Of a stretch of 64,000 nucleotides of DNA, positions 7,376 through 42,526 are shown in pieces (the first letter of the stretch is position 1; each line of letters opens with the position of its first letter). Made by a program: the position numbers and the translations under genes. Source of the stretch: a bacterium (GTDB taxonomy: Bacteria > Patescibacteriota > Minisyncoccia > Phycocordibacterales > UBA12088); NCBI GenBank assembly GCA_003252295.1, contig QKEV01000003.1, positions 128,701 through 192,700 of the forward strand. The letters are read 5' to 3'. The notes under the pieces are model-generated. The model worked only from the letters and a program-made list of their open reading frames with translations. It did no database searches and was not told the DNA's origin.

Positions 7376-7480
7376 GAGAATAATGTATGTGTTCAAAAAA
7401 TATACAGATTTCCTGTTGTGCTATTTATTACCATCTTGCATGGTATTATCAGTAGGCGGTACACTAGTGGTACTAGCTAT

Positions 7481-20132: not shown

Positions 20133-21996
20133 TACTATAAATACAAAAATTTGGTGGTGGGGAGGTTGTGTACTATTCATGTTTTTAATGATGTGTGTGC
20201 ATGTGGTGAGCTCACAGTCGACCTCATACTTGACGTACGTGAGCGATCGATTGACGCATAGTGCACCTGCTGCATCAACAAACCATACGATTACCTTTAC
20301 ATTGACACAGGCAGTACCAGCGGGCGGTGCTGTTGAGCTGCTCTTTGATGAAGGTGGAATAACTATCCCGGCAGCACTCGACTACACTGATGTTGATATG
20401 GCATTTGCAGCAGTAGCAGGTGGTCCCTATACGGAACGTCCTCTGTCATGGCTACAGAGCGCTGGAACTGATGATGTGACCGTGACGAGTGGTGCAAATG
20501 GGAGTGTGCGCTTTGACCTTAATACATCGGTAGGTATTGCCGCTGGTAATGAAGTAGTAGTTGAAATAGGTACTAATGCAACCTATGGTGCTCTTGGTGA
20601 TCAGCAAACGACACTGATCAATGCTACCGGTACGTATCCGGTAACCATTTACACATACGATGCTTCGGATATAGAAATAGATTATGGTAGAACAGTTTTT
20701 GTTGTAGTTGAGCCGGTGACGGCTGGTCCAGTGGATACCACAGACACTGACCCACCGATCATTATAAGTTCATGGCCAAGCGGCATTCTGCAAACGGGAA
20801 CAGAGGCAGCTGAGATGTATGTAGAGACAAATGAGTTGGCAACCTGTAAGTACGCAACATCGAGCATGTCGTACTCGCTCATGCCGTATACATTCTGGTC
20901 AACCTCAACATCTGATTATGCACTATGGAACTTTGCACAACTCACCGGACTCACTGATGGTGAGTCGTACATATACTATGTTCGCTGTATTGACTTTCGT
21001 TTGAATGAAATGAACCCGGATTACATTATTGCGTTTGAGGTAGGTATTCCTCCTGGAAGTTCGACAACTACCTCGACTAGTACGAGTGTCGGTACCGGAA
21101 TAGGTGATGTTGCAAGTTCTACCTGTATTGGAGACCAATGTGTTGGAGACGACATTGGTTCCGGTAGTGGTTCAACAGGTACGGGAGACGGTAGTAGTCC
21201 TACAGGAGGTGATAATAGTGGTAGTGGCAACGGAGGAGGTAGTAGTGGTGGTGATTACTTACCACAAGCTGATGTAATGATCGATGGTTGGGCATATCCG
21301 AACTCAACAGTGTATCTTTTGCGTGATGGGGTAGAAGTAGGTACTGAGTCACCAGGAGGTGACGCATACTTTAGTAACCTTACTGAAGGACTTGATCGTG
21401 GTTCGTACTCATTTTCAGTGTATGCCATAGATGCAAAAAATGGACGCAGTGCAACAATCAGTACCACGCTCTGGTTGCAACAAGATACGTACAATGAGAT
21501 CAGTAACGTCATGCTTCCTCCTACGGTGCATGTCGTTGAGAATTCTGTTGCACCAGGTGCACCATTAGAGGTGAGTGGATATACTGCTCCACGAGCAACA
21601 GTGACAACATGGCTCAGGCCAAAACTTGCAGAGGTAACGAGTGCTGATATTGTTGCAACAACAACAGCAACTGCTGCAGGTACCTGGGCGCTCACCATAA
21701 GTACTACAGGACTCTCTCAAGGAACCTATGAACTTATAGCACAAGCAGTAATGCCAGATGGAACAGTAGAGAGTGATAAGAGTTTGCGGAAGACTATCGG
21801 TATTGGGGTAGACGTGGGTGCAGATGGAGATTGTATCAGTATAGGAGACCTCAACTGTGATGGGTATGTGAACCTTGTAGACTTTTCTATCTTGCTCTTC
21901 AATTGGAACACCTCAAGTGCAACAGCAGATATAAATGGTGATGGTTTAGTATCATTGCCTGACTTCTCGATTATGCTCTACAACTGGACGGGCTAA
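20125..21996 (+). CDS. Secreted 623-aa protein with a Gly/Ser-rich linker, an Ig-like domain and a C-terminal type-I dockerin-like module.
   Basis: The C-terminus GDLNCDGYVNLVDFSILLFNWNTSSATADINGDGLVSLPDFSIMLYNWTG carries two Ca-binding F-hand-like segments (D.N.DG.V...D). Start codon overlaps the stop of the FGE-like gene (20125 vs 20132). Confidence 0.8.
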   Translation: MSSTINTKIWWWGGCVLFMFLMMCVHVVSSQSTSYLTYVSDRLTHSAPAASTNHTITFTLTQAVPAGGAVELLFDEGGITIPAALDYTDVDMAFAAVAGGPYTERPLSWLQSAGTDDVTVTSGANGSVRFDLNTSVGIAAGNEVVVEIGTNATYGALGDQQTTLINATGTYPVTIYTYDASDIEIDYGRTVFVVVEPVTAGPVDTTDTDPPIIISSWPSGILQTGTEAAEMYVETNELATCKYATSSMSYSLMPYTFWSTSTSDYALWNFAQLTGLTDGESYIYYVRCIDFRLNEMNPDYIIAFEVGIPPGSSTTTSTSTSVGTGIGDVASSTCIGDQCVGDDIGSGSGSTGTGDGSSPTGGDNSGSGNGGGSSGGDYLPQADVMIDGWAYPNSTVYLLRDGVEVGTESPGGDAYFSNLTEGLDRGSYSFSVYAIDAKNGRSATISTTLWLQQDTYNEISNVMLPPTVHVVENSVAPGAPLEVSGYTAPRATVTTWLRPKLAEVTSADIVATTTATAAGTWALTISTTGLSQGTYELIAQAVMPDGTVESDKSLRKTIGIGVDVGADGDCISIGDLNCDGYVNLVDFSILLFNWNTSSATADINGDGLVSLPDFSIMLYNWTG

Positions 21997-22988: not shown

Positions 22989-24473
22989 ATGCTTTGCTCA
23001 TCGCGAAAACATATGAGCAAGGGTGTAAGTATACAACGTAACACAAGGCATCTTGGGAAACTACTCAGTTTGCTTTTTGTGTTTTTACTTGTTTTGGTCT
23101 TGCCGCGACCTTCATACGCGGCGAGCTATGCGTTTTCTCCTGCAACAGGTTCCTATGAGGTGGGTAAGAGTTTTACTGTAAAGGTGATGGTGAATGCTGG
23201 TGGAGACGCAGTGAACACAGGTGATGCTACCATTACATATGATTCGAACTTACTCACCGCTGTGTCTGCTGCAAAAGAATCAGCGTTCAATCTTTGGGTT
23301 ACTGAACCGACCATAAAAGCTGGTACGATAACATTTGCAGGAGGAGGCACCACTGCTATTTCTGGAACAAAAGCAATTGTCACGATCACCTTCAAAGCAA
23401 AGGCTGAGGGTACGGCGACGGTAGCCTTTTCAAAGGCAACACTCTTAGCTGGAGCAGGACAGAATGTTCTTAGTGGTTCTGATGGAGCAACGTTTACTAT
23501 TACACCTGCAGCTGCTACACCGGAACCTACTGCAGATCCGGAGGAGGAGAATCGAAACACAAAGATACCACCACCTGATGCACCTGTTATAAAGAGTACA
23601 ACACATCCTGAGAGTGAAGAGTGGTACGCTGCGTCTGATGCTGCGTTTAACTGGGATATACCGTATGGTGTAACTGCCATGCGTCTTTCCTTTGATCAAG
23701 ATGAGAAGGGTGCTCCTACTGAACAGCACAAGCCACCGATAGGTGAGTGGAAGACGAGTGGTGTAACTGATGGTGTTTGGTATCTCCATGCTGATTTTGA
23801 AAATCGTGGTGGCTGGGGAAGTTCTACTTCCTTTGCGATACATGTGGATACAACACCTCCTGAGGAGTTTAGTGTTTCTGCTGCTGGTGGAGATCTTACA
23901 GCAGAATTGCGTTTTGAAGCAGTAGATGCACTCTCTGGTATTTCATATTATGAGGTGTCTATTGATGATGGTAGTCCACGAGACGTACAGCCAACAGAGC
24001 TTACAGATGGCTATCGACTCACCAATCTTGATCCGGGTGAGCATACGATAGCAGTGACAGCATTTGATATGGCAGGGAATGAACGTTCAGCAGGTGGATC
24101 GGTTGAGGTGACAGGCACAAAACAGGTTGAGGAGGAGGTCTCTGAACCAATAGGATTTGACGCTATCTACTGGGTATCACTCTTGTTCATGGCAGCACTT
24201 GCAGTGGTAATAACCATGCTCATCAAGGAACGTCGCAAGTTTGTTGAAGAAAAAGATCATATTAAACGTGAGACCATGGAGGTAGGTGACCGACTCATAA
24301 ACATTTTTGGTGTACTTCGTGATGAGATTGAGGAAAAGGTGATAGAACTTTCTCATAAGCCAAATATGACCGACAATGAACGTAATATACTCGAGGGCTT
24401 GAAAGATGCACTCGATATTTCAGAAGAGCTTATCGATAAGGAGATCGAGGATGTTAGGAAGCTCCTCAAGTAG
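22989..24473 (+). CDS. Membrane-anchored cohesin-like scaffold protein: signal peptide, cohesin-like domain, Ig/FN3-like domain, TM helix, cytoplasmic coiled-coil tail.
   Basis: SYAFSPATGSYEVGKSFTVKVMVNAGGDAVNTGDATITYDSNLLTAV...GTITFAGGG...IVTITFKAKAEGTATVAF...ATFTI has a cohesin-like beta-sandwich pattern. TM helix IYWVSLLFMAALAVVITMLI. Paralogous to the ORF at 58948 (GEHTIAVTAFDMAGNERS vs GEHVLTVTAFDNAGNSTS). Its ATG directly abuts the Hsp20 stop. Confidence 0.65.
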   Translation: MLCSSRKHMSKGVSIQRNTRHLGKLLSLLFVFLLVLVLPRPSYAASYAFSPATGSYEVGKSFTVKVMVNAGGDAVNTGDATITYDSNLLTAVSAAKESAFNLWVTEPTIKAGTITFAGGGTTAISGTKAIVTITFKAKAEGTATVAFSKATLLAGAGQNVLSGSDGATFTITPAAATPEPTADPEEENRNTKIPPPDAPVIKSTTHPESEEWYAASDAAFNWDIPYGVTAMRLSFDQDEKGAPTEQHKPPIGEWKTSGVTDGVWYLHADFENRGGWGSSTSFAIHVDTTPPEEFSVSAAGGDLTAELRFEAVDALSGISYYEVSIDDGSPRDVQPTELTDGYRLTNLDPGEHTIAVTAFDMAGNERSAGGSVEVTGTKQVEEEVSEPIGFDAIYWVSLLFMAALAVVITMLIKERRKFVEEKDHIKRETMEVGDRLINIFGVLRDEIEEKVIELSHKPNMTDNERNILEGLKDALDISEELIDKEIEDVRKLLK

Positions 24474-24874: not shown

Positions 24875-24904
24875 GTGCGTGCACAGGGGTTGTTCGGTGT
24901 AGAA

Positions 24905-27900
24905 ATGTTGAAACGTTTTTCATTTATTTATCGAAACAAGATACCACTCATAGTGGCAACACTCGTTGTGTTCATAGCAACACTCGTTGTATTTGCAGTG
25001 GAAGAGGAGAAAACGATCCATGTTTTTCCAACTGCAGTGAAGAGTGAGAACTGGATGAAAGAGAATAACGCACTTGAGCAGAGTCTTGGTGATCAAGCGG
25101 TACTTGAAGACTTTGATAGAGATAATTCTGCCTTTGTAATCTTTATAGAACATGAAAAACCTGATGAGGTTAAAGAGGAGGTATCAGAGGAAGAGGGTGG
25201 CACTGAGGGTGTCACACCTAATGATGCAGCAGAGGAGACAGAACAAGATGGGGTAACTGAAGAGGTGAATAATGAAGCAGGTGAGAGTACTCCTGCTGAG
25301 GAAGTGATAGAGGAAGAAGAAGTAGAAGAGCAGGAAACAATAGAAGAAGAGGAATCAACTATTGCGCCGATGGAAGATCTCACTATGCATGAGTATCTTT
25401 TTGATCTTGGAAGAGGTTTTGTTGGAAAACAAGCACATGCACAGGAGGTGGTTGAAGATACAGAAGAAGTAGAACAGGTTCCTGAGGAGGTTGAGGAACC
25501 ACAGATGAACAGTGAAGAGGAGGCAGTTGTAGCAGAACCTGTTACAGAAGAAATTGTTGAGGAAGTGTCGGAAGTTGAAGATATACAAACAGACGAGACG
25601 TCTTCAGGTGTGGAAGAGACGGTATCTGAGCCAGAGGAAGGTATTGCTGATGAGATAATGGATGAAGAAGTGGTAGAGGATGATACTGAAAATTCTGACC
25701 AGGTGGAAGAAGTACAGGAAGAGCAAGAGATTAAGGATGTGGTGAGTGATGAAGAGGTGATAACCGATACTTCCGTTGAGGAGGGTGTAGATGAGGATGT
25801 CCGTGTATGTAAGGTGCTCGGTACAGAATGCTACACACTTGAGTTTGATGGCTTCGATATCGGCAGTGTGCTTTCAGAGGAAACGGTAACAGGGTACACC
25901 TTGAATGCATCACTCGCAGCGCACTCTGATATAGATAGGTTTACGGATGATAAGGTACTCGTTCGTTACTTCTACAAGGGTAAGTGGCACCTTGCTGGTG
26001 AGATTGCCATTCGAGATACCATTTCAAACTTTGAGAATGGTGGTCATTTCCGTTTTGCTCTGCCTGATCTTTCAGGATGGGATGCGCTCCATACCTTTAA
26101 AGTTGAATTTGAGTTTGTTCGTCAGAGTGATGTGCGAACTGATTTCTATCTCGACAGTGTTTGGGTGGAAACAACATACCGGACTGATGGAAACGAAGGT
26201 CCTGTGTTTCCTGACAATGTACTTGAAGAACTCGAACACCTCGAGCAGGCACGTCGAGGTGATTTGTTGCGGGTAGATGATGACACGGTCATTACACTTC
26301 CATACGCAACTACCGATGGTGATGATCTGGTCATTCGTTCAAGTGAGGTAGCACTCGAGAGTCCTGGTACTGGTGAGATGTACTTTTCGGTGACCAATAT
26401 TGGAGATTCCAAGAAAGACTTCTCACTTTCGTTTTACATGCCGGATGAAGAGAGTGAACCACAGATGCTGCGGCAGTGGATGTACAACATTCCAGAAGAG
26501 GAAGAGGTGATTGAGTATGGCAGTCTTGCTCAGTACTGTGAGGGGACGTGGGTGCCGGATGAAGATGAGCCAGAGCGCTACTTGTGTGCTGAAACCGGAG
26601 TTGATCTCTACTGTAGCGAGCTCAACAGTGATATGACGAACTGTATTGAGAACAATGTTGAAGTTGGGCGTCATACAGAAACAGCTTACCGTGAGGGTTG
26701 GCATGAGTACCTGCTTGATCAAGAAGTGAAGGAGTCATCTAATGAAGAGGAAGTTGGAGAAAATGGAGAAACTGCTACTGATGCTATGTCTGCACAGGTA
26801 GCAGCAACAGAAGATGAGAAAGAAAAAGAGAGTTTCATTGACCGAGTCCGACGTTGGTTTAGTTTTACCAAACAGCCGGAACGTGATGCTGCTGTTACCT
26901 ACACTTCAAAAAATACTTTTACCGTTGCTCCTGACCAAACACTCTTCTTCTCGTCTCGTATTGAGTACCCGCAGATATCTGAGGGTGGTTTTGCGGTAGT
27001 TGCTACAGCTCGTAACGAGGCACCAGCACTTGATATTTCTTGGAAGAGTGATTGGCGTTACCGACTACCTGTTGAGTTTGATAGGGACATGGTCGGAGAT
27101 CGTCTCGATCTAAAACTCACTGTTGATGATGTACCACACATGTTTTCACATGTGGGTGATTGGTCGCAACTCTTCATACGTGAAGCTGATTCACATAGTG
27201 CAGAGTGGCTTCCGTTCACCCATACGGTGGTGAGTGACAGTAGGGTAGAGCTTTCAGTCGATCTGAGCACACTCTCTTCTGGTGCGCATGAACTTGAGGT
27301 CTACTATGGTGATGATGAAGTAATGAAAGAAGAGCGTAAGTTGCGAGGCAGTAAGCTGTTTATTAATCCTGAAGCACTATCTCTTGGTAGAGATGCTGAA
27401 GGTGCAGCAGATGATCTTACTGAACTCGGTTACAGAGTTGGTACGGTACAAGAGGTGGTGCTTGATGATGAGCCAAACCATCGGGTCCTTGTTGGGGAGG
27501 AGGAAGATGGCAGTTTCCCAGAAGATGGAAAACTTGTCTTTGCGTACCGTTCAAACAGAGCTGAGTCAAGGGAAGGAGTGTTTGCCGATGTTCCTGACAC
27601 GAATGATTTCAGTATTGCGCGCGCAACCCTTATTCATGCAGGTAAGGGTGAGGTACCTGATACAAGTGTGATCAAAACGGTTGGCAATGAGTGGGTGCTC
27701 AACACAGGCATGAGCAAGCGCACCTTTACCCCAGGAAAGTATATTCTTGAGGTTGAGGTGGTTGAGGGAGATACACGATATGTTGATACACAGGAGTTCT
27801 ACTGGGGTGTACTCACCTGGAACACAACAAAGAGTGTCTATGAAGTAGGTGAGACCGCTACCATGCACATGGGAGTTCTTGCTGACAGTGGTAGTACTGT

Positions 27901-30900
27901 TTGCGATGCAACGCTTGAACTCACACTCCGTACCCCAAGTGGTGAGGAGGTAACGGTACCTGTGTCAGCAAGTGGTGTGTGTGTTGGTAACACTGTTGTT
28001 GGTGTACCGGACTACAGTGCTGCGTACACACTCGGAGAGGTGGGGACCTACGATGTACTCCTCAAGTCCATTGGCAAGGATGGCACGGTACTTCATCAAA
28101 TAGAGGATAGTATCGTCGTCGAAACAAATACACCGTATATTATTGAGCGAACAGGACCAACGAGAATCTATCCAGTTGCTGATTACATAATGATGCTTGC
28201 GGTTACCACAGATAACACGTACGTGGGAACTGTACGTGAGGTAGTGCCGGCGTCATTTAGGGTGTACGACTACGGAGATGCTCGTATCTACACTGAAGGA
28301 AATGAGACATTCATTGAGTGGGATGTGGCACTCATTGGCGGCGAACGTGCTGAACTTTCATACAGCTTCGATGCACCCGATATAAGTCCGTACGTGTACC
28401 GACTTGGTCCTGCAACACTTGGAGATGTATTTACTGAACTGCGGGAGTGGCAGATAGCTTCAGATGCCACAGGAAACATGCTCATCCTCTGGGATGATGG
28501 TGCTACGGTGCCTACCGGTTGGACCTGTGTATCGTGTACCTCTGGAGATCCGTTCTATCAGCGGTTTATCATGGGAAGCTCCACGTACAACACCACGGGT
28601 GGTGCGACGACGCATAATCATTCAGCAACAGGAAGTGTCTATACTAGTGGTGCCGGAGCGACAGAGAGTCTTGGTAGTGGTGTCATTGAGGTGGTTGGTC
28701 ACACACATACCTACACGCCAACTATTTCTTCAGAGAACAACTTGCCGTTGTATCGTCAGCTTCGCGTGCTCGAGTACAACTCTGCCGGTGAACCTACAGA
28801 GCTACCGGCAGGTGCAATAGTGTACTTTGATGCCACAGTGCCGAGTGGTTGGACTCAGTACGCAGCTCAGGATGGGTACTACGTGTACGGTGAAAATACG
28901 CCGGGAACGACAGGTGGGTCAAATACTCATAGTCACACCATTTCAGGTTCAACAGATACTTCAGTTGGAGACTCGGTGGGAAGCCGAGGAGGTGGCACAC
29001 AAGCTTCTGCTGCAACAGATGCACATACGCATACGGTTTCTGGTGGTACACTCACAGATTCAAATGAACCACCGTACGTTGAGATGATTCTTGGTAAACT
29101 TGATGCAACAACAACACTGCCAAATGGCATGATAGGTATGTGGACTGATGAAGTGCCGACTGGTTGGTTAACCATTTCGAGCTCAACGGAGACGCTCGAG
29201 AACAAGTTTATAAAACCTGCTGCAACATACGGTAGTGAGGGAGGATCAGCAGCACATGCTCACAGCGATGTTACAGGACTCACCTCAAGTTTGGTAGGTG
29301 GTGCAGCGAGTAGAGCTGGTAGCTCTGGAGTAGAACCACATACGCACACTGTTGATGTGACGAGCTTCTCAACGGAATCGAGTCTGCCTCCGTACGCTAC
29401 TGCTATATTTGGAAAACGTTTCTCCGATGACCCTATTTACACGCAGAACTACTACCGCTTCTACGTGAATGAAGACGCAGAACCACCAACAGATCCATGG
29501 CCAGCAGGAGTGACTGATCTTGCTGAGAATGCTCGTATCACGACGAGCGACTACACGAGTAAGGGTGATGTGGTACGTATGCGCATGTCGGTCAGTGTCA
29601 CCAATGCAACCTCAACCGCAGATACTGATGCCTTCAAGTTGCAGTATGCAGCCGGGTCAACCTGTAGTGACTCAGGACTCGTTTGGTACGATGTTGCACC
29701 AATAGGTTCAACGACGGCACCATGGCGAGGCTACGACAATAGCTCGCTCACCGATGGTACTGAGGTGAGTTCCACAACACTTTCCGTTTCAGATGTGTTT
29801 GAAACATACGAAGAGGAGAATCCTTCAGCGAGCACCACCAACGACATTGAGATAGACCAAGAAGGTGAGTGGGACTGGGTGGTGCAGCACAACAATGCAA
29901 GTGCGGGAACCGACTACTGTTTCAGGATGGTGCAGAGTGATGGAAGGGTGTTCTCTGGGTACAACAACTATCCGCAACTCATCACCGATGAGGCGCCGGT
30001 CGCTGCGACACTCCTTACGCCGTTTGATAATGAGAAAGCTTCAAGTACAGCACCAGTCTTCACCTTTTACACCACTGATCCTGAGGGAGATGCTATCCAC
30101 TACCAGATACAAGTAGATGACGATTATCTCTTTGGAAGTCCTGTAATAGATGCAAATTCAATAACTTCGACGAGTGATTTTGGAAACGTGGATACACCTG
30201 CAGATAAGGCACCGTTCAACTCGGGAGACACTATGAAGTACGATGGGGCTTCAGGTCTTTCCAACAATACGACGTACTGGTGGCGTGTTCGAGGTCGTGA
30301 TACAGAGGGTTCTGACCAATGGGGTGATTGGTCCGACGCAAGGAGCTTCACCACTGATACGTCGGTCACTATTTCTACTTGGTTCCAGACAACTGATGAA
30401 CAATTTGATACTGATACACTCACTGGTACAGAAAGTTCCGGTGGTTCTGATCAGGTAGTGCTTACTACGGGAAGTACAACAGGTTCGGTTGTTTCAACAG
30501 CTATTGATTTTGATTGGGGCACTGATGGAAACGCATGGGGATACCTCTACTTCACCGATACTGAGATATCGAGTGATTTGAAGTACAGTATTGAGTACTA
30601 TGATACCGATAGTGAAGAGTGGGGCTTGATACCTGATACAGATCTTTCTGGCAACTCTACTGGATTTGATACCTCACCAGTCACACTTCTTTCTCTAGAT
30701 ACATCTACCTATAACCAGATTCGCTTGGTTGCTGATCTTACCAATAGTGGTGCAAGTCCAATTCTCCATGACTGGACGGTGGAGTGGGGAACGAGGGTGC
30801 AGCAGCCGACACTTATGAAATTGTTTGATAATGAGAAGACGGGAACAACAACACCATCATTTGAGTTTACTACGACTGATCCACAAGATGATGATCTGGT

Positions 30901-39900: not shown

Positions 39901-42526
39901 GCACTACAGTTTTGCAGGTATGGATACAGAAGGGGTTCAGTTCAGTGGAAACCCAAGCATAACAACACTCAATGATGGTACCTACACGCTCGATGTGGAT
40001 GGAGGTACTATGATCACCGTATCTAGTTCAACCATCAACAACAACCCTTCACGAACGTTTGATGGTCTCAGCTTCTCAACTGGAGCAGGTGTCTCATCTG
40101 GATATAACGTAACACTGAGTGGTACCACAAATAATATCTGGCAGTTTACAAACCATACGGGAAACTACGATGGTGAGGATTACGACAATGATGGTGTTGA
40201 TGCTTGCGGTCAGATCAGGTGGTCTGATAGCGCTTGTCTCGAGGTGAGTCAGACACACTACCGCTTTAGAAATGATGATGGAGGCGAGGGTGCACCGAGT
40301 GGCGAGTGGTTCAATGCGAGTTGGGATAAACGACGACTCATTAAGGTATTCAACACGAGTGGTCCAGCAGTTACTAACTACGCCTTTAAGGTTGCAATAC
40401 CGTATGACGGAGATATGCAAGCTGACTTTGATGATGTTCGGTTTACCGATAGTTCAGGAACAACTGAACTTTCATACTGGTTTGAAGATGTACAACTCTC
40501 AGCCACGGCAACAGCATGGGTAAAGATACCAAGTTTGGAGGCAAATTCGGTAAATGAGATATACATGTACTATGGTAATGCACTCGTTGCGAGTGGTGAG
40601 AATGGTGCAGACACCTTCAGTTTCTTCGATGATTTTGAGGATAATGATATTTCTGAATACTCGGGAAGCGCGCAGGACCTTTCATACTTTGCTACAAATG
40701 CGAGCTATAACTACGAAGGGTCGTACGGTCTTGCAGCATCAGGAGGTAATACTGATAAGCAGACGAATGGCGGTATTTATCAAACAAGTACGACATTTTC
40801 ACAAGGTTCTACTGTCCGTTTCTTCCAAAAAATAACAGCAGGCACTGACGATGAACCATGTACACTCTTTGGTGTACAGGGTTCTGGACAGAACTACGCT
40901 GTGTGTCTTGATCAGTATCCATCAGACACGATTGTTATATCTCGAGATGTAACGAGTAACAGTGATGATGGAAGTGCAACGGAACTTGCATCAACAGGAG
41001 TGACCTGGTCAAGCGGTTGGTATGAGGTTGAAATAAACTGGCTCACCGATGACTCTATAGATGTTACTGTGTACGATTCTACAGGAAGTGTTTTTGCAAC
41101 AGTGTCGACAACTGACAGTACGTACACTTCCGGAGGTATGGGATTTGCCTTTTGGTACCAGAGTGAAGGGTGGGATTTCTACACGGTGCGTCCATACGTA
41201 GCAAGTGACCCAAGTTATACTATTGGTGCTTCTGAGCAACCGGAGGGCGGTGCTACATGGAAGGTTGCGCAGGATACACCGCTCACTGGACAGGCTCCAA
41301 ACGAGAACTTTAGGGTGCGCTTTACTGTTGAAAATACTGGTACACAAATAACAGGGCAGACTTGGCGGTTGCAGTATGCTCCAAAGAGTACGTACGGTGC
41401 TTGTGAGGGAGTACCATCTGTAAACTACAATGATGTACCGAGTGCTGTCTCATGTGGACTTTCTCCTGTGTGTATGACCTCGAGTATTGATATTACTGAT
41501 CAGGAGACCACAACAGAACATCTCTCAACAAACCTTTTTGGTACATTTGTGAATGGTTACATGACCGAGTCACCGTCAAATCAAACAACAGCTATGACCC
41601 TTGAGCAAAATGAGTACACGGAAACAGAGTACTCAATAGAGTTTACCGATTATGCTACTGATTCAAACTACTGTTTACGTACTACAAATGGTGGTACTGA
41701 GGTTGATACCTACCTTCGTGTTGCTGAAGCTTCTGTACGTTTTGCTCCTGTTATTACCAACTGGCGTTTGAATGCTGATGAGGATATTTCACTTGTTGAG
41801 GGAGAGACAACAACAGTCTATGCAACCGGTACCGTGAGTGACCTAAATGGTTTCGGAGATATGCTCTATGCGACAAGTACTATTTACCGTTCAGGAGTTG
41901 GTTCTGATTGCACCGCAAATGACAACAACTGCTATCCAATTACCTCACTCTCGTGTCCATTTACTAACTGTTCAGGCAATTCTTGTGATGTTGAGTGTAG
42001 TGCAGAAATTCAATACTTTGCTGAACCTACTGATGCTGGTACCTATGCTGGTGAGCACTGGGAGGCAAGTCTCTTTGTGATTGATACAACAAACAACTAT
42101 GCTACTGACACATCTGTTGCAGTTGATCTCAATACACTTTGGGCACTCTCGCTCACCTCGAATGATATCAACTACGGAACGCTTGGTATTGGGGAAGATA
42201 CTGGAGCAGTAAACGCCACAACGAGTTTACAAAATACAGGAAACGATAATGTAGATGTAGAAGTTGAGGGAACCAATATGACCGCTTCAGGTAGCTCTAT
42301 TCCAGTTGGAAATCAAATGTTTGCTACATCGAGCTTTACCTACTCAAGTTGTGTTATTTGTACAGCACTTTCAGGTAGTGCGAGTCCATATGAGGTAGAT
42401 CTGATAAAACCAACTTCTGCTTCAACACCGGTAACTGACACCTTATACTGGGGTATCTACGTACCAGTAGGTACTGCAGGAACATCTCATTATGGTCAAA
42501 ACACGTTCTATGCTATTGGTGACTAA
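24905..42526 (+). CDS. Giant (about 5870-5883 aa) N-terminally membrane-anchored surface protein. Modules in order: acidic low-complexity stalk; 3 tail-collar (MdpB-like) domains; FN3-like repeats; a 7-bladed lectin-like propeller; beta-helix-like 60-aa repeats; 3 tandem 2.3-kb repeats; DUF2341 plus LamG-like; a WxL-like C-terminal domain.
   Basis: One uninterrupted ORF of 17.6 kb, with a GTG at 24875 or an ATG at 24905 as start. TM helix IPLIVATLVVFIATLVVFAV follows the start. The C-terminal 300 aa are paralogous to the ORF at 52612 (EIQYFAEPTDAGTYAGEHWE vs LWYIADPTDVGSLYAGEDWR). Confidence 0.85.
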   Translation: MLKRFSFIYRNKIPLIVATLVVFIATLVVFAVEEEKTIHVFPTAVKSENWMKENNALEQSLGDQAVLEDFDRDNSAFVIFIEHEKPDEVKEEVSEEEGGTEGVTPNDAAEETEQDGVTEEVNNEAGESTPAEEVIEEEEVEEQETIEEEESTIAPMEDLTMHEYLFDLGRGFVGKQAHAQEVVEDTEEVEQVPEEVEEPQMNSEEEAVVAEPVTEEIVEEVSEVEDIQTDETSSGVEETVSEPEEGIADEIMDEEVVEDDTENSDQVEEVQEEQEIKDVVSDEEVITDTSVEEGVDEDVRVCKVLGTECYTLEFDGFDIGSVLSEETVTGYTLNASLAAHSDIDRFTDDKVLVRYFYKGKWHLAGEIAIRDTISNFENGGHFRFALPDLSGWDALHTFKVEFEFVRQSDVRTDFYLDSVWVETTYRTDGNEGPVFPDNVLEELEHLEQARRGDLLRVDDDTVITLPYATTDGDDLVIRSSEVALESPGTGEMYFSVTNIGDSKKDFSLSFYMPDEESEPQMLRQWMYNIPEEEEVIEYGSLAQYCEGTWVPDEDEPERYLCAETGVDLYCSELNSDMTNCIENNVEVGRHTETAYREGWHEYLLDQEVKESSNEEEVGENGETATDAMSAQVAATEDEKEKESFIDRVRRWFSFTKQPERDAAVTYTSKNTFTVAPDQTLFFSSRIEYPQISEGGFAVVATARNEAPALDISWKSDWRYRLPVEFDRDMVGDRLDLKLTVDDVPHMFSHVGDWSQLFIREADSHSAEWLPFTHTVVSDSRVELSVDLSTLSSGAHELEVYYGDDEVMKEERKLRGSKLFINPEALSLGRDAEGAADDLTELGYRVGTVQEVVLDDEPNHRVLVGEEEDGSFPEDGKLVFAYRSNRAESREGVFADVPDTNDFSIARATLIHAGKGEVPDTSVIKTVGNEWVLNTGMSKRTFTPGKYILEVEVVEGDTRYVDTQEFYWGVLTWNTTKSVYEVGETATMHMGVLADSGSTVCDATLELTLRTPSGEEVTVPVSASGVCVGNTVVGVPDYSAAYTLGEVGTYDVLLKSIGKDGTVLHQIEDSIVVETNTPYIIERTGPTRIYPVADYIMMLAVTTDNTYVGTVREVVPASFRVYDYGDARIYTEGNETFIEWDVALIGGERAELSYSFDAPDISPYVYRLGPATLGDVFTELREWQIASDATGNMLILWDDGATVPTGWTCVSCTSGDPFYQRFIMGSSTYNTTGGATTHNHSATGSVYTSGAGATESLGSGVIEVVGHTHTYTPTISSENNLPLYRQLRVLEYNSAGEPTELPAGAIVYFDATVPSGWTQYAAQDGYYVYGENTPGTTGGSNTHSHTISGSTDTSVGDSVGSRGGGTQASAATDAHTHTVSGGTLTDSNEPPYVEMILGKLDATTTLPNGMIGMWTDEVPTGWLTISSSTETLENKFIKPAATYGSEGGSAAHAHSDVTGLTSSLVGGAASRAGSSGVEPHTHTVDVTSFSTESSLPPYATAIFGKRFSDDPIYTQNYYRFYVNEDAEPPTDPWPAGVTDLAENARITTSDYTSKGDVVRMRMSVSVTNATSTADTDAFKLQYAAGSTCSDSGLVWYDVAPIGSTTAPWRGYDNSSLTDGTEVSSTTLSVSDVFETYEEENPSASTTNDIEIDQEGEWDWVVQHNNASAGTDYCFRMVQSDGRVFSGYNNYPQLITDEAPVAATLLTPFDNEKASSTAPVFTFYTTDPEGDAIHYQIQVDDDYLFGSPVIDANSITSTSDFGNVDTPADKAPFNSGDTMKYDGASGLSNNTTYWWRVRGRDTEGSDQWGDWSDARSFTTDTSVTISTWFQTTDEQFDTDTLTGTESSGGSDQVVLTTGSTTGSVVSTAIDFDWGTDGNAWGYLYFTDTEISSDLKYSIEYYDTDSEEWGLIPDTDLSGNSTGFDTSPVTLLSLDTSTYNQIRLVADLTNSGASPILHDWTVEWGTRVQQPTLMKLFDNEKTGTTTPSFEFTTTDPQDDDLVYEINWSTDYTFITGITSRVSDTDTGFQNITNGVDTSPFTSGDDIRFTVQGSDALTNGSTYWWRVRAKDPSGGDTWSDWSEKWSFTVDTSVVASTWFQTTNEQFDTDGLFGITTLGGNAEVATSVTDVLVAYGQAGSNAPKYRFWDGSSWGNEYSALDVGAVPYWVVTHAHPSAEMYALATIGLDADVNVQLYEDGSWGSLQEMTTTISNTNARGVDIAFEQSSGDLMVAYCDGDADPSYRVYNESTGWGTVGAINLSSTNNCEWIQLAADPVSDEIIVVSLDSTGSQYEAQVWNGTAWGNATIMGSMLTSGHEGIAVEYEESGDQAIVAVSDGNGNRIRYNTWNGTTWGTVSTEALGDNYEWGTFARDDGTDAMTLCYVDFDTDIGALFWTGSAWVAYTERETVGSTNSARPVACQYETEGVRDGYLMMSYSDDTNARYQAYNGATWSTEASISTITDSAPVQSVRSDDGLILSMFFDGTNGRYDFSYWNGSSWSTAETLESSPSVTGAPYKEPFMMAPRNSAVEGTMYSSAINYSDGTGPQWDLVSWNDSEPGASTLIYQVQYYDDSTSNWLLVPDSALLGNSVGTSTSPIDISNLSTVTYSQIRIKASFTCDSGSCPSLYDWTVTWSEGFTVSGIAREYDQTTAVTAGSIAIAVNGSLQVGKTGTVSGGVWTISNVTAFEDDVITVWIDGAAEANEAVGVTRYDGLGPITGMTLYERHLAIGSDDHPTISNTDLAYFDYSVSGDEDILHDVDINNDLYVCATGQATCGNEQLWVQDGSVFEPATSTSEFVYTHDVDIEGTIEGDSNTFEVSGSWTNEGIFNADGSSVVFDATSTSESIDSSSATTSSFYDVTFGQGASTATWSLSSPLDVNGSLTLASGTFAPGAGYTISVAEDLTVESAGVFTKNTGTTTLDGTLQSYWTDSSATLQDMGTVVVDGTSKTVSLGSDVRATTVVIGADDILALGGNTLELTGSFDNNGSLVPQLGEVLFIGTTVGNTVDGGASSFYDLSFNGSGGNWSFPSGRVSVSNDVSIVDGIVTMPNGTSTIGGSLTVTGGSFVHNNGVVYFTSNTTETITANSSLFYDMKFNGNGNWTITDTNATSSNDVSLLSGTLHAPTGTFAIGGSLIATGGIYNHSSGTLRLYGSGVEVLRVNNSNLNDVLIDGTGSYTMTDTNLSILGDLDMYTAGVTFPTGVLTLSGSLNNVSGSFTHNSGSVLFNATSTGHSVTVNGSPFYNVTFDAAAGGWTVTNSATSANNWSLLAASSFTAPNGGTVEVQGDFLNEVGGVETNWTGSTLYLNSGATSTINTKVLGADSYATLQVGANTGVKMWNSDASSYLIDSSGYLYSQDHAGSDGDLYVWGSYVRDSGTEYWSYATDFDGEDITGSERAVSVLFADGAYATVTEATLEILGTAAATTTIDRQGSGSYSVVLSDGAVNAQYYSFANLNSNGFTLTGSSSITKLGYGAYTLGVNGGSLITVSSTTLDANPARQWSGMNFATTTAISGYNVSLIGTPVSYWTFKDHTGNLSGEEYDNDPGGDPGNLRWDDSAFSITISGTVYSDVASGVPSFCDGSTDTVFLKVDGGGSWSTSCDAGTGAYSISGVDFSGDATLTLYLKSAGTTGAVVTKTPNGDIADMDIYEHYTIVRHEDVSPLAIADMDTFDSGDDSDVPFTVAVGTPNTLTVASDSGLYIWNGKEFAPDGNITLLGGGAGASYDGTLRFGTSSVLTAQGIETYTVGGSWIAVQPSTFIKAESTVVFSATTGGKILAPASTFNNVTFNGTGGVWSIASSTTVRGEIDLSAGTVTGSADLTVFLGPVTGAGVFDMTGGTVTILSGSDFGGTVDWTFNNLIFSTTTATTTTKVGAGNVVIDGTLTIGTNNTLEAGNVEWFFGGSGDVLIIDGVFDPQTSTTTYNGSSDLTVAATDYHMLNFAPTSGAPTYTIEAGNFSVDENMFVGSGSTVTVTADTNDPLITVLGDVTIAGNGTYIAAGSNDLFIGGSYDNNGTFTANAGGVIFNSTDTGETIAAGSSPLHHVYFTSDTGGWTLTENLTASGNFVLASSSDWTLASGSTLQVQGVFNNHVGGSATTWTGSTLTLNSGTSYSINGSGHTGDSYSTLNIGANTDVKMWYSSSTSYSVNASGSLYSQDHSGVDGDLYIFGDFVQSSGNQYWSYATDFDGSDLSGGTERKVDVYVANGSDVTLSGGTLELLGTSTATTTITNQGSGIYGFAVTGGTIDAEYYALRNLDATGLNISGSPTITSLSYGDYELAVNGGSLITVAGSAITANQLRIMYNNRFATSSGALSGTNVTATGVTGSSWRFTSHYGGLDGEGYDTDPGGDPGYVIWDDSAAQITISGNVLGTDEATVSSACDGSSQVVRFLINGASPQTTSCNAGTGYYAFTGIVYNVGDVFTVYLDTNGGAKASNVTVDPITNINDMHLYENRAIVRHESGTPVTITDLAVYDSDQDSDIPYDADAGSFTVTTGGKLIVWSGKSFAPGGDVTVASLGNGTSYDGDIELKDTASFIAAGTENHTIGGSFISGSGASLTAANSTFNFTSTSTGETIDTNTSAFANITFNGSGADWTFLEANATTTGDVTITNGTVTLATSSLAVGGSFVNTDTFIGTTTVFNFTSATAESVTFGGYDTGSLNFTGTGSWIMTDTDATTTGSVYIGNGLVILPSGTLAVRTSFENDGADMYHTGTLNLYGSEAAQTLAFGSSTAGSVLISGGGSWIFGNTQATTTGSVTIENGGLTAPSEALGIGGSLVSSGIFNANAGLLNFFATTTGHTVAVNGAVLGTVYFDGVGGGWTVAGSATSTSDWRLLHGSSFEMASSTILEVGGEFENIIGGSATNWTDSTLYLNASGTTFAINGKTDNGDSYANLIIGENTEVSMWNSSGATTTVDSTSYLYSQDHAANDGDLYIYGTYILTSGNEYWSYATDFDGTSLGGSSRAVDVRIASSSSVTVTGGTLEMLGVSGGTTTVDVIGGTGGYGFAIAGGTFNAEHYSFAGMDTEGVQFSGNPSITTLNDGTYTLDVDGGTMITVSSSTINNNPSRTFDGLSFSTGAGVSSGYNVTLSGTTNNIWQFTNHTGNYDGEDYDNDGVDACGQIRWSDSACLEVSQTHYRFRNDDGGEGAPSGEWFNASWDKRRLIKVFNTSGPAVTNYAFKVAIPYDGDMQADFDDVRFTDSSGTTELSYWFEDVQLSATATAWVKIPSLEANSVNEIYMYYGNALVASGENGADTFSFFDDFEDNDISEYSGSAQDLSYFATNASYNYEGSYGLAASGGNTDKQTNGGIYQTSTTFSQGSTVRFFQKITAGTDDEPCTLFGVQGSGQNYAVCLDQYPSDTIVISRDVTSNSDDGSATELASTGVTWSSGWYEVEINWLTDDSIDVTVYDSTGSVFATVSTTDSTYTSGGMGFAFWYQSEGWDFYTVRPYVASDPSYTIGASEQPEGGATWKVAQDTPLTGQAPNENFRVRFTVENTGTQITGQTWRLQYAPKSTYGACEGVPSVNYNDVPSAVSCGLSPVCMTSSIDITDQETTTEHLSTNLFGTFVNGYMTESPSNQTTAMTLEQNEYTETEYSIEFTDYATDSNYCLRTTNGGTEVDTYLRVAEASVRFAPVITNWRLNADEDISLVEGETTTVYATGTVSDLNGFGDMLYATSTIYRSGVGSDCTANDNNCYPITSLSCPFTNCSGNSCDVECSAEIQYFAEPTDAGTYAGEHWEASLFVIDTTNNYATDTSVAVDLNTLWALSLTSNDINYGTLGIGEDTGAVNATTSLQNTGNDNVDVEVEGTNMTASGSSIPVGNQMFATSSFTYSSCVICTALSGSASPYEVDLIKPTSASTPVTDTLYWGIYVPVGTAGTSHYGQNTFYAIGD
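28472..29420 (+). other. Three tandem phage tail-collar / MdpB-like domains inside the giant protein.
   Basis: Repeats of G.I..W.d.vPtGW...(sg. F)...G....g..GG...H.H...G, e.g. LILWDDGATVPTGWTCVSC...TTGGATTHNHSATGS; AIVYFDATVPSGWTQY...TTGGSNTHSHTISGS; MIGMWTDEVPTGWLTISS...EGGSAAHAHSDVTG. Each is followed by ...HTHT...LPPY....G(K). Confidence 0.6.
31283..32405 (+). other. Seven-bladed beta-propeller with RSL/AAL/PLL-type fucose-lectin-like blades, inside the giant protein.
   Basis: Seven approximately 50-aa repeats: KYRFWDGSSWGNE, SYRVYNESTGWGTV, YEAQVWNGTAWGNA, RIRYNTWNGTTWGTV, GALFWTGSAWVAY, RYQAYNGATWSTE, RYDFSYWNGSSWSTA. They match the (R)vY...nG..W.t blade signature of Ralstonia RSL / Aleuria AAL / Photorhabdus PLL lectins. 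Confidence 0.5.
33300..34760 (+). repeat. Degenerate repeats of about 60 aa (180 nt), beta-helix-like, inside the giant protein.
   Basis: Recurrent units F(Y)D(V/L/M).F.G.GG.W(S/T)......(T/V).NDVS...G.(L/V).(A/M)P.G(T/L).(T/A)(I/L)GGSL...GG.F.HN.G.(V/L).F.. Confidence 0.6.
34762..40250 (+). repeat. Three in-frame tandem repeats of about 2.3 kb (units near 34762-37149 and 37150-39442; third unit from 39443 to about 40250 is truncated).
   Basis: Each unit starts T(N/T)WTGSTL(Y/T)LNSG and contains YLYSQDH.G.DGDLY..G....SG..YWSYATDFDG...L.GGT.RAV.V, then Y..D.DPGGDPG...WDDSA, then ITISG.V....A.V.S.CDGS. The units are about 60-70% identical at protein level. Confidence 0.85.
40320..41200 (+). other. 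DUF2341-like domain followed by a LamG / concanavalin-like domain, inside the giant protein.
   Basis: WDKRRLIKVFNTSGPAVTNYAFKVAIPYDGDMQADFDDVRFTDSSGTTELSYWFEDV...ATAWVKIPSL...NEIYMYYGN matches the DUF2341 pattern (W.yR..i.i.....l.nf.v.......F.D.RF.d..G..L.Y.iE.....A.vWVk.P.l....IY.YYGN). Confidence 0.5.

What the first reader, a model, noticed from the sequence alone, without database searches (positions are those of the whole stretch)
28472..29420. Triple phage tail-collar (MdpB-like) array with HxH metal-site motifs embedded in a cellular adhesin
Three consecutive units contain the collar signature G.I..W...VPTGW followed by GG..(T/A)H.HS..G and ...HTHT...LPPY...GK. Tail-collar and HxH boxes are typical of phage long tail-fibre tips (the T4 gp37 His boxes coordinate metal ions) and of MdpB-type proteins. 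No other phage genes are nearby. This therefore looks like a domesticated receptor-binding module rather than a prophage.
Basis: partly seen in the sequence, partly recalled or inferred. Interest (0 to 1): 0.6.

Follow-up and report, generated by a model that had tools for sequence, protein, structure and literature searches.

The report
Triplicated phage-fibre-tip module in giant surface protein
Three tandem copies of a building block related to phage tail-fibre tips sit inside a 5,883-residue surface protein of a tiny Patescibacteria-like bacterium. They most likely fold together into one metal-stapled knob, and this module always comes in threes in at least 147 other proteins, yet no Pfam, NCBIfam or PHROGs model matches it.

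Summary
Window 28463-29419 encodes three ~105-aa units, each with G.I..W/F…P(S/T)GW, GG..H.H, H.H and (L)PPY. The units are 32-38% identical to each other (BLAST E ~1e-15).

- **No direct family hit.** No unit hits Pfam PF07484 (Collar), NCBIfam or PHROGs.
- **Remote links to phage fibres.** A profile of 62 units reaches trimeric phage tail fibres in the PDB: Pa223 gp60 (E 0.004) and SU10 gp16 (E 0.009). The SU10 alignment falls on the four His proposed to bind Fe2+. The profile also reaches single-unit proteins that match only positions 1-22 of the Collar model.

The feature is probably not an "array" of independent domains.
- Of the 147 best-scoring proteins among 1.84 billion representatives, 121 have 3 units, 23 have 6 and 1 has 9.
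- Unit position is conserved across proteins.
- AlphaFold2 gives one rigid body for the three units (pTM 0.82), against 0.52 for one unit alone.

Best explanation: a single-chain pseudo-trimer of a phage-fibre-tip protomer, with two inferred His6 metal sites and a variable distal loop. It would act as a binding knob on a giant cell-surface protein. The same triple module occurs in real phage tail proteins (phiAsp2 Pas28 and Pas29). The His geometry could not be measured, because no model coordinates were available.

The parts
24875..42526 (+). Giant ORF of 5883 aa that carries the module. It has an N-terminal TM helix (aa ~23-42) and an acidic low-complexity region (aa 61-330, 37% D+E). The triple module is at aa 1197-1515, an Ig_Rha78A_N-like domain at aa 1733-1827, three long repeats are marked by WSYATDFDG at aa 3381, 4176 and 4941, and DUF2341 lies near the C-terminus. 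A more likely start codon is the ATG at 24905.
   Evidence: The orthologue in a Patescibacteria MAG is 63.7% identical over 2030 aa. Family members are named 'DUF2341 domain-containing protein' from Cand. Paceibacterota.
28463..28801 (+). Unit 1 (aa 1197-1309): NMLILW…VPTGW…GGATTHNHS…(variable loop)…GHTHT…LPLYRQLRVLEY
   Evidence: 96 bits with a profile that excludes the window. It best matches unit 1 in 146 of 188 other proteins.
28802..29116 (+). Unit 2 (aa 1310-1414): GAIVYF…VPSGW…GGSNTHSHT…(loop)…AHTHT…EPPYVEMILGK
   Evidence: 93 bits. It best matches unit 2 in 150 of 188 other proteins.
29117..29419 (+). Unit 3 (aa 1415-1515): GMIGMW…VPTGW…GGSAAHAHS…(loop)…PHTHT…LPPYATAIFGKR
   Evidence: 84 bits. 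It best matches unit 3 in 152 of 187 other proteins.
28613..28621 (+). HxH-1 of unit 1 (H1247-N-H1249), inferred ligand pair of metal site 1
   Evidence: It aligns with His194/His196 of SU10 gp16.
28928..28936 (+). HxH-1 of unit 2 (H1352-S-H1354), inferred ligand pair of metal site 1
29255..29263 (+). HxH-1 of unit 3 (H1461-A-H1463), inferred ligand pair of metal site 1
28700..28708 (+). HxH-2 of unit 1 (H1276-T-H1278), inferred ligand pair of metal site 2
   Evidence: It aligns with His230/His232 of SU10 gp16.
29024..29032 (+). HxH-2 of unit 2 (H1384-T-H1386), inferred ligand pair of metal site 2
29339..29347 (+). HxH-2 of unit 3 (H1489-T-H1491), inferred ligand pair of metal site 2
28622..28699 (+). 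G/S/T-rich loop between the two HxH motifs of unit 1, inferred distal specificity-determining tip. The equivalent loops are 28937-29023 in unit 2 and 29264-29338 in unit 3.
   Evidence: The loop has low pLDDT (57-60) in an otherwise 84-98 model and no consensus in the family alignment. It is 23% identical to the orthologue, against 74-77% for the rest of unit 1. The loops of units 2 and 3 are 56-59% identical.
28511..28522 (+). PTGW of unit 1, the collar-like N-terminal signature. The unit 2 copy is at 28841-28852 and the unit 3 copy at 29156-29167.
   Evidence: W is 95% conserved. It corresponds to positions 1-22 of PF07484 in single-unit relatives.

Best explanation
The 319-aa stretch is one structural module, not three independent domains. 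Each ~105-aa unit is a distant homologue of the protomer that builds the homotrimeric, HxH-containing distal part of phage tail fibres. Known examples are SU10 gp16, Pa223 gp60 and the JUB59 receptor-binding protein, and the unit's N-terminal strand and PxGW motif are shared with the Collar domain.

Here the protomer has been triplicated in one chain, so the three units probably pack around a pseudo-threefold axis as a single-chain 'trimer'.

- **Base.** The N-terminal (G.I..F…PxGW) and C-terminal (PPY..VI) strands form the base, where the chain enters and leaves.
- **Metal sites.** The three HxH-1 motifs and the three HxH-2 motifs each supply six imidazoles to an axial, octahedral metal site. 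That gives two ions per module, Fe2+ or Zn2+ by analogy, which staple the module together.
- **Tip.** The G/S/T-rich loops between the two HxH motifs form the distal tip. The unit 1 loop is the most variable.

The module sits in a membrane-anchored 5883-aa surface protein of a Patescibacteria-like bacterium. It most likely acts as a rigid ligand-binding knob for attachment to another cell or surface.

Shown: the repeat, its conservation, the remote homology to phage fibres, the multiples-of-three rule, positional orthology, and the gain in AlphaFold2 confidence when all three units are present. Inferred: the pseudo-threefold packing, metal binding and the adhesive role.
For: 1. **Homology to phage fibres.**
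   - The unit profile A1 hits Pa223 tail fibre 9nxk_A (E 0.0038) and SU10 gp16 7z47_I (E 0.0093) among 177,635 PDB sequences. JUB59 C24 protein 6ov6_A is matched only at E 7.6, which is not significant. All three alignments fall on the PxGW / HxH / PPY motifs.
   - The SU10 residues aligned are His194/196 and His230/232. The SU10 authors propose these bind Fe2+ 'as occurs in T4 and JUB59' (PMC9509320).
   - These fibres are homotrimers.
   - The profile also reaches single-unit proteins that carry PF07484: P0057 (E 1.3e-9) and P0083, 'microcystin-dependent protein' (E 4e-6).
   - Foldseek of the three-unit model against BFVD hits phiAsp2 Pas29 and Pas28 (E ~1e-15, TMq ~0.6) and a 'Phage tail collar domain containing protein' (E 3e-3, prob 0.99).
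   - Pas28 and Pas29 each contain exactly three A1 units. Pas29 is annotated as a possible receptor-recognising protein with HXHY motifs.
2. **The triplet is the quantum.**
   - Among the 147 top hits retrieved from 1.84e9 representatives, 121 have 3 units, 23 have 6 and 1 has 9. Only 2 have 4 or 5.
   - These form 156 contiguous triplets and 5 hexads. In a few proteins the units lie in groups of 2 and 1, separated by roughly 180-280 aa.
   - All complete homologues from the first search have 3 units, except one with a single C-terminal unit.
3. **Positional orthology.** Unit i of the window best matches unit i elsewhere in ~79% of proteins.
4. **AlphaFold2.** The three units together give pLDDT 86 and pTM 0.82, with seven strands per unit. 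Unit 1 alone, with a deeper alignment, gives pLDDT 77 and pTM 0.52 with three strands. The HxH segments drop from 97-98 to 67-78.
5. **Conserved ligands.** The four His per unit are 92-97% conserved, and no column has a conserved Asp, Glu or Cys. A complete site therefore needs His from more than one unit.
6. **Cellular, surface context.**
Against: - No coordinates were available, so neither the pseudo-threefold packing nor the convergence of the His side chains was measured.
- The PDB profile hits are only modestly significant (E ~0.004-0.009), and T4 gp37 and gp12 were not recovered.
- Foldseek of the three-unit model against PDB chains found nothing. The single-unit model's hits to fibre chains are not significant (E 0.6-6).
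- HxH-1 is incomplete in at least one unit in 65 of 189 triplets, including unit 1 of the closest orthologue. Site 1 may therefore tolerate fewer than six His, or may not be a metal site in all members.
- The top-150 list is ranked by summed score. That favours multi-unit proteins and says nothing about rare 2-unit forms lower down.
- Nothing here tests the adhesive function.
Confidence: 0.62

Rival explanations
1. The giant protein is itself a homotrimeric fibre. The three units are three successive layers along it, and each HxH site is formed by the same unit from three chains, as along the T4 gp37 needle.
For: All solved relatives are homotrimers in which HxH motifs from three identical chains meet on the axis. 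Phage fibres often carry several successive HxH boxes.
Against: A homotrimeric shaft would not require unit numbers of 3, 6 or 9, yet 145 of 147 proteins obey that rule. The three positions are differentiated and orthologous across proteins. A monomer AlphaFold2 run already gives a confident rigid body, pTM 0.82, which is unusual for a protomer of an intertwined trimer. One unit alone loses confidence.
Confidence: 0.15
2. The units are three autonomous, monomeric lectin-like or collar-like domains arranged as beads on a string. Each would bind its own ligand or metal.
For: The units are tandem and of equal size, with short linkers. Tandem carbohydrate-binding modules are common in large adhesins (general knowledge).
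Against: Copy number would then be expected to vary freely, and it does not. A pTM of 0.82 for 322 aa is not expected for flexibly linked beads. The isolated unit is predicted with much less regular structure. Each unit has only four conserved His and no other conserved ligand residues.
Confidence: 0.1
3. The His pairs form a catalytic metal centre, for example a hydrolase or lytic enzyme acting on a host envelope polymer, rather than a structural staple.
For: The His residues are strongly conserved. Some giant proteins of predatory or epibiotic bacteria carry degradative domains (title of bioRxiv 10.1101/2023.11.21.568195).
Against: No enzyme family is hit in Pfam, NCBIfam or the PDB. The homologous His in phage fibres are described as structural iron ligands. 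No conserved acidic or nucleophilic residue accompanies them.
Confidence: 0.05
4. The region is a remnant of a prophage tail gene fused by accident or misassembly into a cellular ORF.
For: It is homologous to phage tail proteins.
Against: The module is in frame within an uninterrupted 5883-aa ORF. The same module sits at the same position in an orthologue that is 63.7% identical over 2030 aa and in many other giant proteins. No phage families were found in the neighbours. tblastn against 50,697 phage genomes finds nothing.
Confidence: 0.02

Closest known systems
Actinoplanes phage phiAsp2 tail proteins Pas28 and Pas29 (NC_005885)
   Same: Each contains exactly three A1-type units in one chain (full E 1e-22 to 1e-24). 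Their predicted structures are the best structural matches of the three-unit model (Foldseek E ~1e-15, TMq 0.59-0.61). They lie just after the large pas27 'tail protein' gene, which is annotated as the putative major tail protein. Pas29 is annotated as a possible receptor-recognising protein with HXHY motifs.
   Different: These are phage virion proteins, not cellular ones. Their units are longer (~130 aa) and carry four HxH each. BLAST-level similarity to the window is absent. No position-by-position orthology with the cellular triplets could be shown. Their structure and stoichiometry have not been determined, as far as the record shows.
Short tail fibre gp16 of E. coli phage SU10 (PDB 7z47), tail fibre gp60 of Pseudomonas phage Pa223 (PDB 9nxk) and the receptor-binding protein of phage JUB59 (PDB 6ov6)
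   Same: The profile alignments cover PxGW…C.G, two HxH motifs and a terminal PP(Y/F) strand. The aligned His of gp16 are the proposed Fe2+ ligands. These chains are also the only kind of PDB chain that the single-unit model retrieves.
   Different: They have one unit per chain and assemble as homotrimers at the end of a fibre shaft. The window has three diverged units in one chain, embedded in the middle of a giant protein. Significance is modest (E 0.004-0.009), and E is 7.6 for 6ov6.
Pfam PF07484 Phage tail collar domain / MdpB (microcystin-dependent protein)
   Same: They share the N-terminal beta-strand and PxGW(..CDG) signature. Single-unit relatives of the window's units hit PF07484, two of them above the gathering score.
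   Different: Only profile positions 1-22 of 57 are shared. The window's units do not hit the model. The middle of the Collar domain is replaced by a GG..HxH segment.
T4 gp37 long-tail-fibre tip (His boxes binding seven Fe2+) and T4 gp12
   Same: They show the same principle: HxH motifs from three strands coordinating axial metal ions in a fibre tip (established knowledge of PDB 2XGF).
   Different: No sequence-profile match was found at E <= 10. They are homotrimers, and the relationship is only by way of SU10 and JUB59.

Membership tests
Pfam PF07484 (Phage tail collar domain) / MdpB | Match to the family HMM at or above the gathering score (24 bits) | tested here: not met
   There is no Collar hit for the array at E <= 0.1. 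Of 62 family units, one reaches E = 0.1.
Pfam PF07484 (Phage tail collar domain) / MdpB | N-terminal strand plus PxGW(..CDG) motif (profile positions 1-22) | tested here: met
   G.I..W/F…P(S/T)GW is present in all three units. Eight single-unit relatives match exactly positions 1-22, or 2-33 in one case, of the profile.
Pfam PF07484 (Phage tail collar domain) / MdpB | Remainder of the domain (profile positions 23-57) | tested here: not met
   No relative aligns beyond position 33. In the units this segment is replaced by …GG..HxH.
HxH metal-binding phage tail-fibre tips (T4 gp37 / JUB59 RBP / SU10 gp16 type) | Conserved HxH motifs on beta-strands | tested here: met
   There are two HxH per unit, 92-97% conserved over 567 units. 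They lie in or next to predicted strands.
HxH metal-binding phage tail-fibre tips (T4 gp37 / JUB59 RBP / SU10 gp16 type) | Detectable homology to solved members | tested here: inconclusive
   9nxk_A scores E 0.0038, 7z47_I E 0.0093 and 6ov6_A E 7.6. T4 gp37 and gp12 are not found. Structural hits of the single-unit model are not significant.
HxH metal-binding phage tail-fibre tips (T4 gp37 / JUB59 RBP / SU10 gp16 type) | Six His from three strands coordinating an axial Fe2+/Zn2+ ion | not testable with these tools
   Model coordinates are not returned, and AlphaFold2 places no ions. The site is inferred from the 3n rule and from the lack of other conserved ligands.
HxH metal-binding phage tail-fibre tips (T4 gp37 / JUB59 RBP / SU10 gp16 type) | Homotrimer of identical chains | tested here: not met
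   The window has three diverged units in one chain. The monomer model is already a confident rigid body.
Unnamed triple-unit HxH module family (giant Patescibacteria proteins, ~500-aa stand-alone proteins, phiAsp2 Pas28/29) | Exactly three (or 3n) units per module | tested here: met
   The window has 3 units. Among the 147 top relatives, 121 have 3, 23 have 6 and 1 has 9.
Unnamed triple-unit HxH module family (giant Patescibacteria proteins, ~500-aa stand-alone proteins, phiAsp2 Pas28/29) | Position-specific orthology of units 1, 2 and 3 | tested here: met
   146/188, 150/188 and 152/187 best matches fall on the same position.
Prophage or phage tail gene cluster | Neighbouring phage structural, lysis or integration genes | tested here: not met
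   Neighbours carry cohesin, dockerin, Ig-like, HSP20, histidine kinase and ABC/FtsX domains. There are no PHROG hits for the array or six neighbours.

The most novel reading that the evidence does not exclude
The module is an obligate single-chain pseudo-trimer: a phage receptor-binding fibre tip whose three protomers were fused into one polypeptide. The family is large, with 5,394 clusters at 50% identity and no matching model in the Pfam, NCBIfam or PHROGs libraries searched. On this reading it is a principal, exchangeable host-recognition device of Patescibacteria giant surface proteins, and specificity is written in the unit 1 distal loop. Phages (phiAsp2, SU10-like contigs) and cells would then share, and possibly exchange, the same single-chain receptor-binding cassette.
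Probability: 0.3. Interest if true: 0.75.

Novelty: new variant of a known kind. Interest (0 to 1): 0.55.

Why it matters
How ultrasmall episymbiotic Patescibacteria recognise and hold on to their hosts is largely unknown. Their giant surface proteins are mostly unannotated.

If this module is a phage-type receptor-binding tip made monomeric by triplication, three things follow:
- It gives a concrete, expressible ~320-aa fragment with which to look for host ligands.
- It defines a large domain family (thousands of clusters) that the searched libraries do not cover.
- It offers a natural example of converting an obligate homotrimer into a single chain. That is useful for engineering phage receptor-binding proteins, which are hard to express because they need trimerisation chaperones.

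It would also extend the set of proteins carrying phage-type HxH metal sites beyond virions.

Tried and rejected
- **Direct family searches found nothing useful.**
  - Pfam, NCBIfam and PHROGs on the array and on each unit. The only Pfam hit was a spurious MbtH match at E 0.016.
  - phmmer of the array against the PDB gave only chance hits.
  - tblastn of the array against 50,697 phage genomes gave no match.
- **Structure searches.**
  - Foldseek of the three-unit model against PDB chains gave no meaningful hit (best E 0.13, TM 0.07). This is expected if each PDB chain equals only one unit.
- **Other searches.**
  - The search for related loci with the alignment failed for lack of a conserved 7-10-column block. 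The single-sequence scan gave two orthologous loci.
  - Literature searches for a described single-chain or pseudo-trimeric HxH fibre tip, or for such a module in Patescibacteria, found nothing relevant in the held library. This is not proof of absence.
- **Ideas considered and rejected.**
  - A second, degenerate triplet elsewhere in the giant protein, as in P0095. The profile finds none.
  - Independent triplication in phages versus cells. This was left open, because the phage units are as diverged from each other (25-40%) as the cellular ones.
  - All-or-none loss of HxH across the three units as a test of shared sites. Losses are mostly single-unit, so the test neither supports nor refutes shared sites.
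Full report
**1. The observation**

The finding lies inside a single uninterrupted ORF, 24875-42526 on the + strand, 5883 aa.

- **Units.** I delimit three units: u1 28463-28801 (113 aa), u2 28802-29116 (105 aa) and u3 29117-29419 (101 aa).
- **Motifs.** All three P[ST]GW motifs, and six of the seven HxH motifs, of the whole protein fall here.
- **Similarity.** The units are 32-38% identical pairwise, with BLAST E 3e-16 to 3e-15. A profile built only from homologues' units hits each at 84-96 bits and nothing else in the protein.
- **Uniqueness in the window.** No other six-frame ORF in the window matches.

**2.

- Pfam gives no PF07484 (Collar) hit for the array. The giant protein hits only Ig_Rha78A_N and DUF2341.
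- NCBIfam, PHROGs and phmmer against the PDB give nothing.
- tblastn against 50,697 phage genomes gives nothing.

**3. Relatives**

A search of 5.8 billion proteins found 39 relatives.

- **Unit count.** Every complete relative has exactly three units. The one exception, P0024, has one unit at the C-terminus of a fibre-like protein.
- **Conserved residues.** An alignment of 62 units (A1) shows near-invariant W, GG, H.H, H.H and P.Y.
- **Size of the family.** Searching 1.84 billion cluster representatives with this profile gives 5,394 proteins at E <= 1e-3 and 529 at E <= 1e-30.
- **Multiples of three.** Among the 147 top proteins retrieved, 121 have 3 units, 23 have 6, 1 has 9 and only 2 have 4 or 5. 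These make 156 contiguous triplets and 5 hexads. In a few proteins the units lie in groups of 2 and 1, separated by roughly 180-280 aa.
- **Giant relatives.** Many hits are giants of 5-6.8 thousand residues. The named ones are 'DUF2341 domain-containing protein' from Candidatus Paceibacterota, plus one MAG labelled Woesearchaeota.
- **Closest genome.** The nearest species-representative genome is an uncultured Patescibacteria MAG. Its orthologue is 63.7% identical over 2030 aa.

**4. The link to phage fibres**

- **PDB.** The A1 profile hits Pa223 tail fibre gp60 (9nxk_A, E 0.0038) and SU10 short tail fibre gp16 (7z47_I, E 0.0093). The JUB59 receptor-binding protein (6ov6_A) is matched only at E 7.6, which is not significant. 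The alignments run through PxGW..C.G, the HxH motifs and the terminal PP(Y/F) strand.
- **Metal ligands.** In SU10 gp16 the aligned residues are His194/196 and His230/232. The authors suggest these bind Fe2+ and stabilise the fibre 'as occurs in T4 and JUB59' (PMC9509320).
- **Oligomeric state.** SU10 gp16 and Pa223 gp60 are described as homotrimers.
- **Background.** T4 gp37 carries seven iron ions coordinated by paired His (PMC11705849).
- **Single-unit relatives.** The profile reaches 50 short single-unit proteins. Two carry PF07484 in the precomputed annotation: P0057 (E 1.3e-9) and P0083, 'microcystin-dependent protein' (E 4e-6). Rescanning shows that eight such proteins match Collar only at its start: profile positions 1-22 of 57 in seven of them and 2-33 in one. 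Two are above the gathering score.

The units are therefore distant relatives of Collar-bearing phage-fibre protomers. They share the N-terminal strand and PxGW, then differ.

**5. Triple modules also exist in phages**

- P0035 is a ~420-aa triple-unit protein without a signal peptide. It sits next to genes with weak SU10_adaptor and Phage_phiTE_241_C matches and an Amidase_2 gene, a context that looks like a phage tail and lysis module.
- P0035 matches Pas28 of Actinoplanes phage phiAsp2 at 33% identity, E 2e-16.
- Pas28 and Pas29 lie directly after the large pas27 'tail protein' gene, which is annotated as the putative major tail protein. Pas29 is annotated 'possible receptor recognizing protein; contains HXHY motifs'.
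- Each of Pas28 and Pas29 has exactly three A1 units.

**6. Structure prediction**

- **Three units together.** With a 25-sequence alignment, AlphaFold2 gives mean pLDDT 86 and pTM 0.82. The model is all-beta, and low confidence is confined to the G/S/T-rich loops between the two HxH motifs of each unit.
- **One unit alone.** With a deeper, 62-sequence alignment, AlphaFold2 gives pLDDT 77 and pTM 0.52 with only three strands. In the triple context the same residues score 85-98 and form seven strands.
- **Viral models.** Foldseek of the triple model against BFVD gives Pas29 and Pas28 (E ~1e-15, TMq ~0.6), a tail fibre protein of Aeromonas phage MJG and a 'Phage tail collar domain containing protein' (E ~3e-3, prob 0.98-0.99).
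- **PDB chains.** The triple model finds nothing against PDB chains. This is what one expects if each solved chain corresponds to one unit only. The single-unit model retrieves only trimeric fibre chains (8on5, 6ov6 A/B/C, 9nxk), none of them significant.

**7. Further evidence that the triplet is one entity**

- Unit i of the window best matches unit i of other proteins in 146/188, 150/188 and 152/187 cases. The triplication is therefore old, and the three positions are differentiated.
- The four His columns are 92-97% conserved. The other columns at 75% or more are I, P, W, G, GG, P and Y, with no conserved acidic or Cys residue. Two His per strand cannot complete a site within one unit.
- HxH-2 is intact in all three units in 160 of 189 triplets, and HxH-1 in 124 of 189.
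- In the orthologue comparison, the unit 1 inter-HxH loop is 23% identical, against 74-77% for the rest of unit 1. The loops of units 2 and 3 (56-59%) are not more variable than their scaffolds.

**8. Context**

The giant protein has an N-terminal hydrophobic helix and a 37% D+E region. Its neighbours encode:
- cohesin, dockerin, He_PIG/Big and FGE-sulfatase domains;
- HSP20;
- a histidine kinase;
- ABC/FtsX transporter components;
- Peptidase_S51.

No phage families were found. This is a cellular locus rich in surface proteins.

**9. Interpretation**

The best explanation is a single-chain pseudo-trimer of a phage-fibre-tip protomer.

- **Base.** The collar-like N-terminal strands and the PPY C-terminal strands form the base.
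- **Metal sites.** The three HxH-1 and the three HxH-2 motifs form two axial His6 metal sites.
- **Tip.** The inter-HxH loops form the distal tip.
- **Role.** The module serves as a rigid binding knob on a giant surface protein.

Steps shown: repeat, conservation, remote homology, 3n rule, positional orthology, and the dependence of AlphaFold2 confidence on having all three units. Steps inferred: pseudo-threefold packing, metal binding and ligand binding.

Rivals are listed with their evidence: a homotrimeric giant fibre, independent beads, a catalytic centre and a prophage remnant. I put about 0.62 on the main model.

**10. Novelty**

The kind of module, an HxH/collar-type phage fibre tip, is known. 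The triplicated single-chain form is not covered by the Pfam, NCBIfam or PHROGs libraries searched, and neither is its strict 3n rule or its wide use in giant Patescibacteria surface proteins. It was also not found in the held literature. I therefore class it as a new variant of a known kind, of moderate interest. The direction of transfer, phage to cell or cell to phage, is undetermined.

Noticed in passing
L001 5697-10037 (also L002): The stand-alone ~500-aa triple-unit homologue P0004 lies in a TasA/SipW-like cluster. The cluster holds two archaeal/SipW-type signal peptidases (TIGR02228), a TasA/Peptidase_M73-like protein and another protein with a SipW-dependent-type signal peptide (TIGR04088). 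P0004's own N-terminus (…GAYFTDNETS…) looks like that signal type but did not hit the model. This suggests the triple module can be a component or tip of a TasA-like fibre system.
   Followed up: partly
L003 5458-11246: A ~420-aa triple-unit protein without a signal peptide (P0035, seen on 17 contigs) sits among genes with weak SU10_adaptor and Phage_phiTE_241_C matches, an Amidase_2 gene and a 2708-aa methylase-containing gene. This looks like a phage that uses the single-chain triple module as a tail protein.
   Followed up: partly
window 35015, 37400, 39695 (aa 3381, 4176, 4941 of the giant ORF): The motif WSYATDFDG recurs three times at ~780-aa spacing, marking three very long internal repeats in the C-terminal half of the giant protein. 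They are rich in 'FNG.G.W' beta-helix-like segments, and no Pfam model covers them.
   Followed up: no
window 22989-24473, 58948-60828 (cohesin); 20125-21996, 61520-62260(-) (dockerin): The window encodes several cohesin- and dockerin-domain proteins in a Patescibacteria-like genome. This hints at a cohesin-dockerin surface assembly system around the giant protein gene.
   Followed up: no
window 65-7081 and 7418-11284: Two further very large ORFs (2338 aa and 1288 aa) have no Pfam hit at E <= 0.001. The 1288-aa ORF also has no PHROG hit.
   Followed up: no
L007 (orthologue), unit 1: In the closest orthologue, the first His of HxH-1 in unit 1 is replaced (TTSTHT instead of TTHNHS). The adjacent loop is almost completely different (23% identity). 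This is the most divergent spot of an otherwise 64%-identical module.
   Followed up: partly
L008 (JBLIMJ010000001.1): A 57%-identical orthologue of the giant protein lies on a contig of a MAG labelled Acidimicrobiales. All other close relatives are Patescibacteria, so this may be a mis-binned contig.
   Followed up: no
P0100, P0105, P0117, P0135, P0189 (representative proteins): In some family members the units lie in groups of 2 and 1, separated by roughly 180-280 aa. P0100 keeps six units in all, arranged 2-1-2-1. This fits units that must meet in three dimensions rather than simply follow each other.
   Followed up: no
P0041 (197 aa, on a 90-kb contig): This homologue has a normal unit 1 and the first half of unit 2, then runs into unrelated sequence and stops. 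It looks like a frameshifted or truncated copy.
   Followed up: no
window 24875-24905: The mechanical ORF starts at a GTG. An ATG ten codons downstream (MLKRFSF…, nt 24905) immediately precedes the hydrophobic helix and is a more plausible start.
   Followed up: no
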